A DNA stretch of 64,000 bases, taken from NCBI GenBank assembly GCA_047601445.1, contig JASGJH010000001.1:9088001-9152000 (forward strand), written 5' to 3'. Each line of letters begins with the position of its first letter. The first letter of the stretch is position 1. Made by a program: the position numbers. Positions 15,801 to 27,800 of this stretch are shown here, piece by piece. This stretch comes from Myxococcales bacterium. GTDB lineage: Bacteria; Myxococcota_A; Polyangia; Polyangiales; DASUME01.

Positions 15801-18800
15801 ATGCGTGAGTCCCAAGTCGGGCGTGCTTGAATCTTCGGGCCGACAAGGATAGGAGCAGGCCCATGCTCGATCGCCTCCTGCGCACGCAGATGCCGCCCAT
15901 GCGATGCTTCGCGGCCCCCACCTCGCATTTCGGGGTCGAGCTCGAGTACCTGGGCACGGCGGGCTTCGTGGTGCGCGGTCAGGGCCGCACCTTGGTGCTC
16001 GATCCCTATGTCACCCGGGTTCCGCTTCATCGCTTGTGGCGCCCGCTGCAGTCGGACGAAGCCCTGGTGGCGCGCGTGATTCCCAAGGCTGACGATGTGC
16101 TCGTCGGGCACGCCCATTACGACCACGTGCTCGATGCCCCTACGCTCTGCCGTCGCACCGGGGCGCGTTTGATCGGCGCCAGCGCTGTGATGCAGGTGGG
16201 CCGCGCGTTCGGACTGCCCGAGCATCAGCTGTGTGAGACCTCGGGCGGGGAGGCGATTCCGAGCGGGCCGTTTCGCATCCGGGGCCTGCCTTCGCGCCAC
16301 GGCAAGGTGTTCCTTGGGCGCGTGCTGTTTCCGGGGGACATCACCGAGCCGCCGTCTTGGCCGCCGGGCATCGCCGAGCTCAAGCACGGCCTCGTGCTGA
16401 ACTGGCACCTCGAGCTAGGCGACTTTTCCCTGGTCCACGTGGACTCTGCGGACTTCATTCCACGTGAGCTCGAAGGATTACGCGCGGACGTGCTGTGTCT
16501 GTGCGCGGCGGGCCGTCACTATCGGCCGCGCTATGTGGAGGAAGCCATCGCGCTGTTGCGGCCGCGTTATGTGGTGCCATGTCACTGGGACACCATGATT
16601 ACGCCGCTCGAGCGGTGCCAGCCCTTACCAGGCATCGACTTGCCCAAGATGGTGAGCGAGATCGAAGCGGCTGGCGCACAGGCCGTGATGATGCCCGTGC
16701 TCGGTCGCGCCAGCTTCTGAAGCGCGTCGCCGCCGCTCCGCTCCGGGGCGTCACTTGCGGAACAGGTTCAGCAGCAGGCTGAGCACGATGCTGACCACGA
16801 TCGAGCTCACCACGGGGAAGTAAAAGGTGAAGTTCTTCTTCTCCACCACGACATCCCCCGGCAGGCGTCCGATGCCAAGCTTGGACAGCGCCATCCACAG
16901 CAAGCCAGTGGCGGCGATGGTCAGACCCGCGTAGAGCAGCATTTTGCCGGCTTGCATCTCCGAGTCGTACCACCGTCTCGCGCCAGCGCGAGCAGGGCGC
17001 GCGGTAGCGGTTAGTGCAGGCCCTTTTCCGTGATGTAGCGCAGGGTAAACGCGGCTTTGTCGGCGTTCCCCTCGACGCTCGACTTGGCCACGAAGTGCTC
17101 GATGATGGAGCCGATGCCGAAGATCTTGCAGTGCACGGAGTTCTTGCTCAGCTGCTCCACGCCACTTGCGTTCTCGTCGAGCCGCACGGCGCCGAGGATC
17201 TCCACGCGATCACCGATTACCGCCGGCACCATTCGATACGACCAGCACTTCTCGCGCGGATCGAACTTGCTGATCTCCTCGATGATCACGTTCTCGCCCA
17301 CCAGCTTGCGGATGGGGAGCGGAGCTTCGAGCGGCTTTTCGAAGCGCAGGCGTCGACTCATGCCCGTCTCGTAGTCGCCCTTGTGCTCGAGCACTTCCAT
17401 GCGGATGAATCCGAGCGCCTCGCAGTAGAGGCGCTGCTGGTAGTCGAGGTTCAGGCATAGCTCTCGCCAGTACGTCTCGGCGCGGACAGGGAAACGCTTG
17501 CGGAATTCGGATTCGATCACACCAGACCCTGTTCTTTGAGGTGCGCACAGGTCAGGCGGATGCCCTCCGCCAGGTTCACCTTGGGCTCGTAGCCCAGGTC
17601 CCTGCGTGCCTTGTCGATGCTGAAATAGTGATGCCTCACCATATAGCGCACGGCAAACCGGGTCATCCCATCCTCCGCATTGAGGGTGCCCCCGCGCAGG
17701 GTATCGATGCCCTCCTTGATGGCGGCCGCGGCAAAGACGACGGGGTACGGGACCCCGCCCAGGATCGGCGGAAGCTTCAGCTCGGCGAGCACTTTGCCCA
17801 CGAAAGTGAAGAACGGCAGCGGCTCGCCGTTCGTCACGAAATAGGCCTGACCCGCGCTCGGACTGTCGGGGACGAGCCGACGATCCGCCAGGAGCAGCGC
17901 ATCTACCAGATTGCCCACGTAGGTGAAGTCGGAGAGCTTGCGATTGAAGAGGCCCACCGAGAAGCGCAGCTTGCCCGCCTTGGCCCGCTGCAGGACCGCT
18001 GGAAAGAAGCGCCGATCGCCGGGGCCGAACACCACGTGGGGACGGATCGCGCAGGTGAGCACTCCGCGCTGGCCGTTGGCCGCCAGGATCTCCTGTTCCG
18101 CTACGATCTTGCTGTCGGAGTAGGGAGCCTGACTCTTGCTGGAGTAGGGCAGGGTCTCGTCGCCGTTCTCGATGTCCTCGCCTTCGTACACGGCGCTGGC
18201 GGTGCTCACGTACACGAGCTTCTTCACGCGGGCCTTCCAGCAAGCGCGCAACACGCTGCGCGAGCCGCCCAGATTCACCGACCACACGTCGCTCTCGCGG
18301 TTGTGTTTGGTGTGAACCAGCGAGGCGTTGTGGAAGACCGTGGTCACGCCCTCGCAGAGCTTGGCCAGCGCGTCGGTGTCACGGATATCCACCCGCTCGA
18401 AGCGCATGTCGGAGCGCCAGGCCTCTCCGAAGGGCTCCACCACGATCACCGCGTCGCCGCGGGCGATCAGCGCGTCCACCAGGGCGCGACCCACGAAGCC
18501 GGCCCCCCCCGTCACCAACGAAACCTGCCTCTGCGTTTCCATGGTTCGCGATGATGGTTCGAAAAATAGAATCGTCAATCTAAAAACTGGTTTGCCCGCT
18601 TCGAAGGGGCGAGTACAGTGCCCGGCAGAAGAGGGGCCGCCACATGGGCAAGCACGACTACGGGCACAACAAACCTGCGCCGCCGACGTTCGAAGAGGCC
18701 AACAACCTCCGTCAGCGGGCGCGCGTCGCCGGCATGGATCCCAACTACTGGTATCCGGCCATGATGTCGCGGGACTTGGCGGTCGGTGCGGTCAAAGAGG

Positions 18801-24800: not shown

Positions 24801-27800
24801 GCTCGCCACGTCGCCCTGGGTCTCGCACCGCATTCCCGGCATCTTCCCCGAGCCGGAGCGCTTCGATCCGGACCGCTTCGCCCCGGGTCGCGAGGAGGAC
24901 AAGAAACAGTTCTCGTTCATCGCCTTCGGCGGCGGGCGCCACAAGTGCCTCGGCAACGCGTTCGCCATGCTGCAGGTCAAGACCATCTTCGCCATCTTGT
25001 TGCGCGGCTTCGAATTCGAGGTCCTGCACGACCCGATCATCCCGGAGAGCGGCCTGGTCATGGGGCCCAAGAAGCCATTCCGCGTGCGGTATCGTCGGCT
25101 GCGCCCCAACGGTCAATTCTGAGGAGAACGACACATGAAGATCGTCATCGATTGGGGTCTGTGCCAGGGGCACGCGAACTGCACCGGCGACGCTCCCGAC
25201 GTGTTTTCGGTGGACGACAACGGCAAGCTCACTGTGCTGCTCCCGGAGCCGCCCGAAGAGATGCGAAGCCAGCTGGAGCTCGCGGTCCGCTACTGTCCGA
25301 CGGGCGCGATTCGGATCGAGGGCTAACGAGTCATTCGGCCTACGGCTCGTCTTGCTCGCGGGCGGGCTCGCCTGCTTCGGCGCGACGTGTGAAGTAAACA
25401 GAGCGTACTTTACGTGGTAGGAAGGTGCGATGGGCATCGGGCGACCTCTGGTTCTCTCTTCGCTGTGGGTGACGGCGGCTCTTACAGCCTGTGGTGACGC
25501 CTCGACTCCCAGCGCCGACGCCGGGGCGGACTCGGGAGTCGTGAGCCCACTCGGTCCCTGCAAGCGACGCAATCCGACCCGCGATCCCTTCTTCGGCGAC
25601 CTGCACGCGCACACGGCCCTCTCGCTCGACGCGAACCTGCAAGGGACTCGGTTGCGCCCGGCGGATGCCTACCGGTTCGCACGCGGTGAGACCGTGGGGC
25701 TGCCGCCCTACGACAGCGCGAACAATCCGCAGCGCACGCTCACGCTATCGCGCCCGCTCGACTTCGTGGCCCTGTCGGATCACGCGGAGTTCCTGGGCCT
25801 GGTCACCACCTGCCTCACGCCTGGGCTGCCTGGCTACGACTCCAGCGAATGCACCCAATACCGAGACGACCCGGATACGGCGTTCCTGCTGCTCAACAGC
25901 CAGCTCGCCGCCGACCAGTCGACTGCGGGCTACCGGACTCCGTGCGACCAAGCCAACAACTTCTGCGACTCCGCGGCGCTCAGCGCCTGGAATGAAGTGA
26001 AGGCTGAGGCCGAAGCGGCCAACGACGAGAGCGAGGAGTGCGCGTTCACGGCCTTCGTGGCCTACGAATGGTCCGCTTCTCCCGGCACCCTGAACCTCCA
26101 TCGCAACGTCATCTTCCGCAACCAGAGTGTGCCGACTCTGCCGTTTAACTACTTCGATGGCAGCGAAGAAGAAGAGCTCTGGGACGCGCTCGACAAGGAC
26201 TGCCTCCAGGCCGGCAGCGGCTGCGACGCTTTGACCATCCCGCACAACTCCAACCTTTCGGCGGGCCTGATGTTCGAGCCCGTGAAGGCCGATGGGCAGG
26301 CCTTCGACAAGGCCTACGCCGAGCGCAGGGCGGCGTTCGAGCCGTTGGTGGAGATCTTCCAGCACAAGGGCAGCTCCGAGTGCTTGCCCGAGATGGGGCC
26401 GGACGAGTTCTGCAACTTCGAGAAGATGCCCTACAACACGCTGTCCACCGTGGTCTTCGGGCTGCAGCCCGACAAGCTGGTGCCGCGAGACTACGTGCGG
26501 GATGCGCTCGGCCAGGGGCTGCGCTTTCAGGCCACGCTCGGGGCCAACCCGTTCGGCTACGGCTTCGTGGCGAGCACCGATACGCATATGGGCACGCCCG
26601 GCGGCGTGGAGGACGACAAGTTTCAGGGTCACGGTGGGGCAGGCTCGAACGCACGCGATGCGCTGCCGCAGGGCCTGGTCGACCACGTGTGGCTCAACCC
26701 CGGTGGCCTGGCGGTGCTCTGGGCCGAGGAGAACCGCCGCGACTCGCTGTTCGACGCCATGCGTAGACGCGAGGCCTACGCCACGAGTGGATCGCGCATT
26801 GTGCTGCGCTTCTTCGGCGGCTCCGACATCCCTGACAACCTGTGTGGTGCCGCAGACTTCGTGCAGCAAGGCTACGCGCTCGGGGTGCCGATGGGAGGCG
26901 AGCTCAAGTCCCAGCAGCCACCCAAGTTCGCCGTCTACGCACTGAAGGACGCGGGCACAGCCGAGCTGCCTGGCGTGCCCTTGCAGCGCGTTCAGATCAT
27001 CAAGGGCTGGCTCGAGAACGACAGCGTGCAGTACGCCATCTACGACGCAGCGGGGGGCGGCAACGACGCCAACGTCGATCCCAACACCTGCGAGCGCAGC
27101 GGCGCCGGCCAAGACGAGCTGTGCGGGGTCTGGACCGATCCCGACTTCGATCCGGCGCAGCACGCCTTCTACTACGCGCGCGTGCTCGAGAACCCCAGCT
27201 GCCGCTGGCATGCCCTGCAGTGCAGCCGCGCGGGCGTGACTTGCGGGGCGGATGGCCCGAGCAAGCCTGGTTTCGAGGGCTGCTGCGACGAGCGCTATCC
27301 CAAGGTGCAGCAGGAGCGCGCCTGGTCGAGCCCCATCTTCTACAAGGCCTTGTGAGGGGGGCGGCGCACGCGCCGGTTGCCCGTGTCGCGCGGCAGCTGC
27401 TCGGGTTTTTCATCCTGGGCTCGAGCCTGTTCGGGCTCAAGCAGGCGCTCGGCTCGGCTGACCGCCTGCCGACCCTGGTGGTCCATGTGCCAGCGCGCGC
27501 ATCCGCCGAAGAAGTCGAACAGGCCATCGATGAAGCCGTGCTGGTGGATCGCAGCCTGTCCCGCGGGGGCGCGTTGCTCGATCCCATCGTGCGCGACCAG
27601 GTCCTGCGCAGCATGCGTGTGTCCACGGGCGTCGATGACGCTGAGAGCGAGCAGGAGCTGCTCGACCGCGCGCTCTCGCTGGGGTTGCATCGGGCGGATC
27701 CGCTCATCCGCAAGCGCCTCGCGTTTCAGGCCGAGCAGGTCTTGCGCGGGCGCCTGCACGCCGACGAGCCAGCTCCGGGGGAGCTCGAGCATTACCTCTC

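What a model noticed while it worked through the whole genome (the two positions that open the first line are those of the whole stretch)
17011..25326. Sterol C4- and C14-demethylation genes share an operon with an aldehyde dehydrogenase and a GMC oxidase
An SdmA-type Rieske oxygenase heads an operon with an aldehyde dehydrogenase, a GMC oxidoreductase, a TetR, CYP51 and a ferredoxin; a C4-decarboxylase (SdmB/NSDHL-like) and a DUF2505 gene are divergent. The two extra oxidoreductases are candidates for the alcohol-to-acid steps of C4 demethylation; the called 1,091-aa ALDH-GMC fusion is a frameshift artefact.
Evidence so far: SdmA 38.9%, NSDHL 35.3%, CYP51 44.6%. Frameshift call 58. SdmA-like gene in 6 of 6 genus genomes; the order DUF2505-sdmB/sdmA-ALDH-GMC holds in 4 of 4 genus loci read, with ALDH and GMC separate, TetR in 3 and CYP51 in the 2 long enough; 0 of 4 other-family loci have ALDH or GMC.
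(Added by a program. Inside this text positions count along the whole contig: contig position 9,088,001 is position 1 of the stretch shown here. "Call 12" and the like, gene names such as g00115 and contig names such as C1 are that model's own, and its searches are not shown. The text may have been shortened before it was handed on; [...] marks where a part breaks off. The agent that wrote the report below was given it as the finding of a first reader that could run no searches.)

Follow-up and report, generated by a model that had tools for sequence, protein, structure and literature searches.

The report
Myxobacterial sterol methyl-removal operon
A myxobacterial gene cluster for stripping methyl groups from sterols carries two extra oxidising enzymes, one of them the bacterial relative of an unexplained yeast and algal protein (Msc7), and their gene neighbourhoods suggest that they help turn the sterol's C4 methyl group into an acid, a job not yet tested.

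Summary
The operon is real, in a sterol-making Polyangiales genome. The 1,091-aa ALDH-GMC 'fusion' comes from one extra base at 20801-20802, probably an assembly error. Three corrections. (1) The divergent dehydrogenase is NSDHL/ERG26-like, not SdmB; no SdmB was found in this genome, so this is a hybrid of a bacterial oxygenase and a eukaryote-type decarboxylase. (2) The arrangement is not genus-limited: sdmA-ALDH-GMC is contiguous in 27 of 63 SdmA-bearing genomes of another family. In other lineages the same ALDH-GMC/TetR/NSDHL set sits with an ERG25-family hydroxylase and reductase instead of SdmA. (3) The ALDH belongs to the eukaryotic Msc7/ALDH22 family, already published as a sterol-linked 'ERG27 analog' (3-ketoreductase, untested). 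It keeps all four aldehyde dehydrogenase catalytic residues checked and is usually coupled to a primary-alcohol-oxidase-type GMC enzyme. Best reading (0.6): oxygenase, GMC and ALDH take the C4 methyl to the acid for decarboxylation. Against: SdmA plus SdmB suffice in E. coli, one genus member lost the GMC, and there is no biochemistry. The module also occurs in cyclase-less genomes with KshA-like genes. The scan had noted only canonical sdmAB clusters before. New variant; interest 0.66.

The parts
17011..17520 (-). DUF2505 protein, 169 aa; START/SRPBCC-fold lipid-binding domain, candidate sterol carrier
   Evidence: PF10698; model pLDDT 90.7 matches PRELI/Ups1 (E 3e-8) and sterol-binding StARkin domains Lam4, Aster (TM 0.66-0.77); behind the SDR in 7 of 7 genus loci. 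Ligand not tested.
17517..18542 (-). [quoted passage not shown]
   Evidence: [quoted passage not shown] OleD model scores 233 bits, below its cut-off 580.
18563..18586 (.). Conserved AT-rich imperfect palindrome in the 101-nt divergent gap; candidate TetR operator overlapping back-to-back promoters
   Evidence: Conserved in 8 of 8 genus sequences, arms changed together in two; only strong site in the genome, 39.9 against next 20.7; one sigma70-like site found, not above chance. TetR binding is inferred.
18644..19783 (+). SdmA-like Rieske sterol C4-methyl oxygenase, 379 aa
   Evidence: NF052579 341 bits, cut-off 600; tested Calothrix SdmA scores 392; 50% to Calothrix SdmA; Rieske and mononuclear iron ligands conserved; member of an ALDH-GMC-linked clade, FastTree 0.98.
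19770..21402 (+). Aldehyde dehydrogenase of the Msc7/ALDH22 ('ERG27-analog') family, about 543 aa; frameshifted in this assembly at 20801-20802
   Evidence: PF00171 in both halves; intact in relatives; next-ranked proteins after myxobacterial ones are eukaryotic, including three named Meiotic Sister-Chromatid recombination aldehyde dehydrogenase; one clade, UFBoot 99; catalytic Asn, Glu, Cys, Glu invariant.
21399..23045 (+). GMC flavoprotein oxidoreductase, 548 aa, His/Asn (alcohol/choline oxidase) type
   Evidence: PF00732 + PF05199; nearest solved structures are alcohol and choline oxidases and a chloramphenicol oxidoreductase; no cholesterol oxidase among 40 hits; His467 24 of 24, Asn511 23 of 24; 4-nt overlap with the ALDH stop.
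23033..23704 (+). TetR-family regulator, 223 aa
   Evidence: PF00440; orthologues beside ALDH-GMC in 18 of 30 long metagenome loci.
23716..25122 (+). CYP51 sterol 14-alpha-demethylase, 468 aa
   Evidence: 496 bits to bacterial CYP51 structures; the top 36 hits are CYP51; haem Cys motif and GHHTS present; only CYP51-grade gene in the genome, next P450 about 25%.
25135..25326 (+). Single-cluster ferredoxin, 63 aa, presumed CYP51 redox partner
   Evidence: PF13459; follows CYP51 in 4 of 4 genus loci long enough.

Best explanation
A locally regulated sterol demethylation module. CYP51 with its ferredoxin removes the C14 methyl. For C4, the Rieske oxygenase hydroxylates the methyl, the GMC flavoprotein oxidises the hydroxymethyl to the aldehyde, the Msc7/ALDH22-family enzyme oxidises the aldehyde to the acid, and the NSDHL-like enzyme oxidises C3 and releases CO2. 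This resembles the hydroxylase / alcohol dehydrogenase / aldehyde dehydrogenase layout of the alkane AlkB-AlkJ-AlkH pathway (recalled). GMC and ALDH are probably helpers that raise flux or clear leaked intermediates rather than being strictly essential. The START-fold protein may carry the sterol and TetR controls both promoters. Shown: gene identities, order, conservation, catalytic residues, oxygenase exchange. Inferred: substrates, order of steps, C4 stereochemistry, and the missing 3-ketoreductase, which must be encoded elsewhere or be a second activity.
For: Oxygenase exchange with constant partners: among 30 GMC-centred metagenome loci with 5 kb or more upstream, 5 have SdmA, 10 a PF04116 hydroxylase, 0 both, 13 the NSDHL-like gene, 13 an FAD/NAD/2Fe-2S reductase, 9 CYP51, 18 TetR (some loci repeat genomes seen earlier and kin are not independent). 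The same sets appear in genome loci L180, L204, L210, L214, L215, L217, L219, L223. sdmA-ALDH adjacent in 30 and sdmA-ALDH-GMC in 27 of 63 SdmA genomes of family f28; the 5 genomes of genera g280 and g281 lack all three. In 401 phylum genomes all 34 with the GMC have the ALDH, adjacent in 31 of 33 others. Catalytic residues intact. Published SdmA alone yields the 4-aldehyde (PMC10202945). Fungal MSC7 is the most induced of 11 genes under hyperactive Upc2A, 9 of them ergosterol genes (PMC8509923) and an SrbA ChIP target (PMC4223079). The host has cyclase, epoxidase-synthase fusion, ERG24 and ERG2.
Against: SdmA with SdmB (or SdmC) demethylates lanosterol in E. coli without these genes, and a review credits SdmA with all three oxidations (PMC6385002). 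0 of 73 canonical SdmA loci have ALDH or GMC within about 10 kb; 5 of 21 other SdmA genomes lack the ALDH, as do G447 and G450 at 94% and 90% complete. G008 lost the GMC. 9 of 30 long GMC loci show no oxygenase, NSDHL-like, CYP51, cyclase or ERG24 gene, and 19 of 66 lack the ALDH directly upstream. In 28 f28 genomes the genes are dispersed. Animals lack the ALDH family yet demethylate. SdmA is described as 4-beta-specific and NSDHL as 4-alpha, so the hybrid's stereochemistry is unexplained. The ALDH gene is broken in this assembly.
Confidence: 0.6

Rival explanations
1. ALDH and GMC oxidise another position of the sterol (side-chain C26 alcohol, C19, or intermediates leaked from CYP51) to make or degrade steroid acids; they are sterol genes but not C4 genes.
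For: GMC sits with CYP51 or ERG24 without the ALDH in L222, L320, L323; ALDH-GMC follow CYP51-ferredoxin directly in L204; SdmAB alone can demethylate.
Against: The closest and most frequent partners are the C4 oxygenase and the NSDHL-like gene; no side-chain P450 or acyl-CoA gene is in the window operon; oxidising the C14 aldehyde to an acid would block CYP51's lyase step (inference).
Confidence: 0.17
2. The GMC is a 3-beta-hydroxysterol oxidase or dehydrogenase acting at C3, and only the ALDH acts at C4.
For: Cholesterol oxidases include GMC-fold enzymes (recalled); GMC and ALDH can be lost or moved separately.
Against: No cholesterol oxidase among 40 solved relatives at E<=1e-30; the nearest are primary-alcohol oxidases; the NSDHL-like enzyme already oxidises C3; tight coupling to the ALDH.
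Confidence: 0.1
3. The published reading: the ALDH-family protein is an 'ERG27 analog' that reduces the 3-ketone after decarboxylation.
For: Proposed from its phyletic pattern (PMC2817430) and used with synteny to ERG25 and ERG26 (PMC8237579 supplement); this genome has no SdmB or identified ketoreductase, so the step is unfilled.
Against: Oxyanion Asn, base Glu, nucleophile Cys and NAD-binding Glu are invariant in 29 of 29 proteins of the eukaryote clade and 39 of 39 myxobacterial ones, and that chemistry needs an aldehyde (established knowledge); yeast erg27 mutants are auxotrophs though they have the gene; a plant ketoreductase gene is reported as identified (PMC6385002; the passage does not name it); the ALDH also occurs beside bifunctional SdmB.
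Confidence: 0.06
4. In this genome the operon is mainly a scavenging or catabolic entry for foreign 4- and 14-methyl sterols rather than part of its own synthesis.
For: Own TetR and a unique operator not found at cyclase, ERG24 or ERG2 genes; 6 of 10 tested ALDH carriers have no cyclase match and 4 of 5 of those tested have KshA-like domains at 177-191 bits.
Against: This genome has cyclase and epoxidase, 8 of 9 genus mates have the cyclase, its only CYP51 and SdmA are here, and its KshA-like matches are weak, 83 and 60 bits. KstD and ring-cleavage genes were not searched. This rival concerns purpose and is compatible with the same chemistry.
Confidence: 0.07

Closest known systems
SdmA-SdmB(-SdmC) bacterial C4 demethylation (Methylococcus, Calothrix NIES-4105, Enhygromyxa salina; PMC10202945)
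   Same: Rieske oxygenase of the SdmA family, 50% to the tested Calothrix enzyme, near CYP51.
   Different: No SdmB; NSDHL-like partner; ALDH, GMC, TetR and START-fold genes attached. The published E. salina sdmBA neighbourhood lists no ALDH or GMC.
Myxobacterial ERG25-ERG26-'ERG27 analog' set (PMC2817430; PMC8237579)
   Same: Same ALDH family, same NSDHL-like gene, same link to sterol genes and to eukaryotic homologues.
   Different: SdmA replaces the ERG25-family hydroxylase; a conserved GMC partner and a reductase are not mentioned in the text searched; the ALDH is read here as an aldehyde dehydrogenase, not a ketoreductase.
Eukaryotic Msc7 / ALDH22 aldehyde dehydrogenases
   Same: 39-47% identity, one clade (UFBoot 99), nine shared signature residues.
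   Different: Eukaryotic proteins have an N-terminal extension and are sister to a second myxobacterial paralogue, not to the operon copy. No plant ALDH22A1 or S. cerevisiae Msc7 sequence itself was in my set.
AlkB-AlkJ-AlkH and BetA-BetB (recalled, not tested)
   Same: Hydroxylase plus GMC alcohol dehydrogenase plus aldehyde dehydrogenase converting a methyl or primary alcohol to an acid.
   Different: Different substrates; the GMC scores 320 bits to the choline dehydrogenase model against a cut-off of 605.

Membership tests
SdmA | Rieske and non-haem iron ligands; homology to characterised SdmA | tested here: met
   Ligands conserved; 50% to Calothrix SdmA; falls among SdmA proteins in the tree.
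SdmA | NCBIfam NF052579 cut-off of 600 bits | tested here: inconclusive
   341 bits; the experimentally tested Calothrix SdmA also fails at 392, so the cut-off is too narrow.
SdmA | Three successive oxidations of the 4-beta methyl | not testable with these tools
   Needs enzymology.
SdmAB system | SdmB-type bifunctional reductase as partner | tested here: not met
   Adjacent SDR 74 bits against 348 for Calothrix SdmB; best genome match to SdmB 31%; best 32-37% in 3 of 5 genus mates, none in 2; true partners score 42-76%.
NSDHL/ERG26 | Closest characterised relative is sterol-4-carboxylate 3-dehydrogenase; SDR motifs | tested here: met
   6jkg 153 bits against 72 for the next; motifs. No tree with eukaryotic ERG26 was built; atlas neighbours include OleD-like clusters.
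NSDHL/ERG26 | Oxidative decarboxylation of 4-carboxysterol | not testable with these tools
   Needs assay.
Msc7/ALDH22 ('ERG27 analog') | Monophyly with eukaryotic Msc7-named proteins | tested here: met
   FastTree 1.00 on 112 sequences; IQ-TREE UFBoot 99 on 46 of them; names. Sequences were picked by similarity to the query.
Aldehyde dehydrogenase | Catalytic Cys, Glu, oxyanion Asn | tested here: met
   Invariant in 39 of 39 myxobacterial and 29 of 29 eukaryote-clade sequences.
ERG27 3-ketosteroid reductase | Short-chain dehydrogenase fold reducing a ketone | tested here: not met
   The protein is PF00171 with no SDR match. Activity itself not testable.
CYP51 | Best matches CYP51; haem Cys and I-helix motifs | tested here: met
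GMC cholesterol oxidase | Closest solved relatives are cholesterol oxidases | tested here: not met
   None among 40 hits at E<=1e-30.
ERG25/SMO (hydroxylase in other lineages) | PF04116 di-iron hydroxylase orthologous to ERG25 rather than ERG3 | tested here: inconclusive
   PF04116 82 bits; homologue names are generic; ERG25 assignment rests on synteny with the NSDHL-like gene, the literature and a recalled motif.
Natural ALDH-GMC fusion | In-frame fusion conserved in relatives | tested here: not met
   Separate genes in relatives; the linker is out-of-frame ALDH sequence. Longer fused proteins were not searched in the protein database.

The most novel reading that the evidence does not exclude
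Ancestral sterol C4 demethylation used separate enzymes for each oxidation: an exchangeable oxygenase (ERG25-type or SdmA), a GMC alcohol oxidase and an aldehyde dehydrogenase. Eukaryotes kept the last as Msc7/ALDH22, which would be an overlooked 4-formylsterol dehydrogenase of fungi, algae and plants, mislabelled as an ERG27 analog; the same module lets marine myxobacteria strip 4-methyl sterols before degrading them.
Probability: 0.4. Interest if true: 0.85.

Novelty: new variant of a known kind. Interest (0 to 1): 0.66.

Why it matters
Msc7/ALDH22 has had no demonstrated substrate in the papers I could read, and since 2009 it has been carried in sterol-evolution studies as a stand-in ketoreductase. 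The bacterial operon gives it a concrete, cheap test: oxidation of 4-formylsterol. It adds a GMC enzyme to bacterial sterol chemistry, shows a hybrid SdmA plus NSDHL-like route, and suggests how bacteria might remove C4 methyls before degrading sterols, which bears on 4-methylsterane biomarkers and on which sterol genes eukaryotes share with myxobacteria.

Tried and rejected
Real fusion protein: rejected. SDR as SdmB: rejected. Genus-limited arrangement: rejected. Genome-wide TetR sterol regulon: no second strong site. Sigma70 and terminator scans were at chance level. Reads to settle the frameshift: none was listed, which is no evidence. A cyclase survey with the genome's own cyclase at E<=1e-120 (32 of 401) misses other cyclase types such as G016's, so I did not compute a cyclase/ALDH correlation; at least 12 cyclase genomes there lack the ALDH. 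The protein atlas gave only generic names. The 2018 PNAS SdmAB paper could not be read; its content is taken from a review and from PMC10202945. Searches for print on a GMC or ALDH partner of SdmA, or on Msc7 as a sterol aldehyde dehydrogenase: (listings), plus term searches with 0 hits for GMC in the PMC10202945 supplements, PMC8237579 supplement, PMC10152446 and 10.1101/2024.11.01.621555. Subscription papers and bioRxiv supplements were not seen and may bear on novelty. No complex prediction was run because no binding is claimed. Eight differences separate operon-clade from canonical SdmA, but none could be tied to function.

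
Full report
Setting. The window lies in a 9.5-Mb single-contig genome, 66% GC, 98.7% complete. 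The closest titled public loci are mostly Polyangiales or Myxococcales MAGs. The genome has an oxidosqualene cyclase (710 bits, cut-off 851) behind a squalene epoxidase-synthase fusion, ERG24 and ERG2 genes and a gene resembling cyclopropyl isomerase CPI1 (label recalled; no Pfam match). It is therefore most likely a sterol producer.

Observation. The eight genes are as described. The 1,091-aa ORF is not a fusion. Pfam coverage of the ALDH stops at residue 345 and resumes in the next frame to a stop at 21402. The DNA has one extra T at 20801-20802 against 6 of 6 relatives, and the read-through has out-of-frame codon composition. Because ALDH and GMC overlap by four bases, the extra base puts the ALDH start in frame with the GMC. 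Frame switches affect 13 of 139 orthologues tested, 2 of them doubtful, so assembly error is the likely cause; a true pseudogene is not excluded.

Identities. The Rieske protein scores 341 bits to the SdmA model, where the tested Calothrix enzyme scores 392, and is 50% identical to it. The P450 is CYP51. [quoted passage not shown] The best SdmB match in the genome is 31%. DUF2505 folds as a START/SRPBCC lipid-transfer domain. A conserved palindrome lies between the divergent genes and is unique in the genome.

Conservation. SdmA was found in 7 of 9 other genus genomes. DUF2505-SDR/sdmA-ALDH holds in 7 of 7 loci; GMC follows in 4, is cut off by contig ends in 2 and is a remnant in G008. Three further contigs show ALDH-GMC, two of them continuing into TetR-CYP51. 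Outside the genus, G032 has the same order over two contigs. In family f28 (73 genomes; probably Nannocystaceae, my inference) SdmA was found in 63, the ALDH in 63 and the GMC in 57; sdmA-ALDH are adjacent in 30, all three in 27, dispersed in 28, and 5 SdmA genomes lack an ALDH hit. Most operon-type SdmA proteins form one clade (0.98), but L168, L041 and L149 fall outside it. None of 73 canonical SdmA loci, mostly with SdmB and CYP51, has ALDH or GMC nearby.

The oxygenase is exchangeable. In 401 genomes of the phylum the ALDH was found in 37 and the GMC in 34; all 34 have both, adjacent in 31 of the 33 others. Of 20 regions fetched around them (one is a cyclase region only), 8 carry a PF04116 hydroxylase, often with the NSDHL-like gene, TetR and an FAD/NAD/2Fe-2S reductase, once fused to the hydroxylase; two more carry CYP51; one has EBP-like and MMPL genes; seven show no sterol neighbour. 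L204 reads cyclase, epoxidase-synthase, hydroxylase, CYP51, ferredoxin, ALDH, GMC. L168 reads ERG24, ferredoxin, CPI1-like, CYP51, sdmA, NSDHL-like, TetR, then ALDH-GMC. A GMC-centred metagenome scan gave ALDH directly upstream in 47 of 66 loci; of 30 long loci 5 had SdmA, 10 the hydroxylase, none both, and 9 none of the core sterol genes. These loci are the best 80 of at least 568, include repeats of genomes already seen, and are not independent.

The ALDH is Msc7/ALDH22-like. Against 1.84 billion representatives the hits after the first two are longer proteins at 39-47% identity. Of 20 looked up, 14 carry eukaryotic source records, three of them named Meiotic Sister-Chromatid recombination aldehyde dehydrogenase, and 6 are unnamed. 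Trees join the operon ALDHs with a second myxobacterial paralogue and the eukaryotic proteins (UFBoot 99). Sampling was by similarity to the query, so I claim family membership, not direction of transfer. All four catalytic residues checked are invariant.

What is in print. Desmond and Gribaldo 2009 (PMC2817430, passages) found this family in Plesiocystis and sterol-making eukaryotes and proposed it as the missing ERG27 ketoreductase, untested. Hoshino and Gaucher 2021 (PMC8237579, passages and supplement part 2 of 32) used it as 'ERG27-analog (P38694)', mostly flanked by ERG25 and ERG26; that P38694 is yeast Msc7 is recalled. Lee et al. 2023 (PMC10202945, section 8, passages, supplement part 2 of 4) show that SdmA alone gives the 4-aldehyde and that SdmA with SdmB or SdmC demethylates. 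PMC6385002 (passages) credits SdmA with three oxidations at the 4-beta methyl and reports a plant ketoreductase as identified. MSC7 appears among sterol-regulated genes in PMC8509923 (section 11), PMC4223079 and PMC5928633 (table rows). PMC7823795 (passages) reports no new work on ALDH22 activity. PMC10152446, 10.1101/2024.11.01.621555, PMC13277303 and PMC11528044 were read as passages. The 2018 PNAS paper was not seen. I found no mention of a GMC partner, of a SdmA plus ERG26-like hybrid, or of Msc7 as a sterol aldehyde dehydrogenase (searches listed under Tried and rejected); subscription papers and bioRxiv supplements were not searched.

Mechanism. The constant core is NSDHL-like decarboxylase, TetR, ALDH and GMC; the variable part is the C4 oxygenase. 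A His/Asn GMC followed by an intact ALDH is the usual way to take a primary alcohol to an acid, and the acid is what the decarboxylase needs. I put this at 0.6. The genes look accessory: known SdmAB pairs work in E. coli without them, several SdmA genomes lack them, and G008 dropped the GMC. Stereochemistry and the 3-ketoreductase are open; a second SDR follows the NSDHL-like gene in G032 and G334 and has a 37% match elsewhere in this genome.

Purpose. Six of 10 ALDH carriers tested have no cyclase match, including G117 (100% complete, 4 contigs), and 4 of 5 of those tested have strong KshA-like domains. The module probably serves both makers and degraders. For this genome synthesis is favoured.

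Verdict. Real; a new variant of known sterol C4 demethylation. The sterol link of the ALDH family is published; the GMC partner, the oxygenase exchange, the hybrid and the aldehyde-oxidising reading appear new within what I could search. Interest 0.66.

Noticed in passing
L163:6599-12261 (G000:C1 about 4796600-4802260): Squalene epoxidase-squalene synthase fusion (1,206 aa, unannotated middle) followed by the cyclase; the same fusion type is in L204. This cyclase is closer (50-56%) to those of distant genomes that lack the ALDH than to those of ALDH carriers (36-40%), hinting at separate acquisition.
   Followed up: partly
L149:696-9797: Epoxidase-cyclase fusion, sdmB, sdmA and two tandem ALDHs, one of each myxobacterial paralogue; the second is of the clade sister to eukaryotic Msc7.
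   Followed up: partly
L210:4695-6620: Natural-looking fusion of an FAD/NAD/2Fe-2S reductase to the PF04116 hydroxylase, downstream of ALDH-GMC.
   Followed up: no
L039, L040, L043, L158-L160, L162, L197: A separate clade of SdmA-like Rieske proteins (36-40%) with no SdmB, ALDH or CYP51 nearby; function unexplained.
   Followed up: no
L252:9671-11035 (G000:C1 about 8811700-8813000): Rieske/KshA-like oxygenase 37% identical to the second, unassigned Rieske gene of the Calothrix sterol cluster.
   Followed up: no
L247:9661-12246: Genus mate G007 has a second CYP51 (60%) with ferredoxin and a PF04116 hydroxylase; may be real or contamination (8%).
   Followed up: no
L214, L216, L223: ALDH-GMC flanked by sulfotransferase, two SDRs, an extradiol dioxygenase-like gene and CPI1-like-CYP51-TetR in small genomes of family f8: a possible steroid remodelling or degradation island.
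   Followed up: partly
window 25430-28275: DUF3604 gene and a PPIC-type rotamase follow the ferredoxin; DUF3604 also follows it in the two closest relatives but was not matched in G008 or G003 (in part).
   Followed up: no
window 14343-14480 (approximate): Four near-identical repeats encoding a short peptide at the end of a globin-like ORF upstream of a thymidylate synthase-like gene (labels by eye).
   Followed up: no
whole genome G000: About 8% of tested genes carry a frame switch, so other 'fusions' or 'split genes' in this assembly need the same caution.
   Followed up: yes
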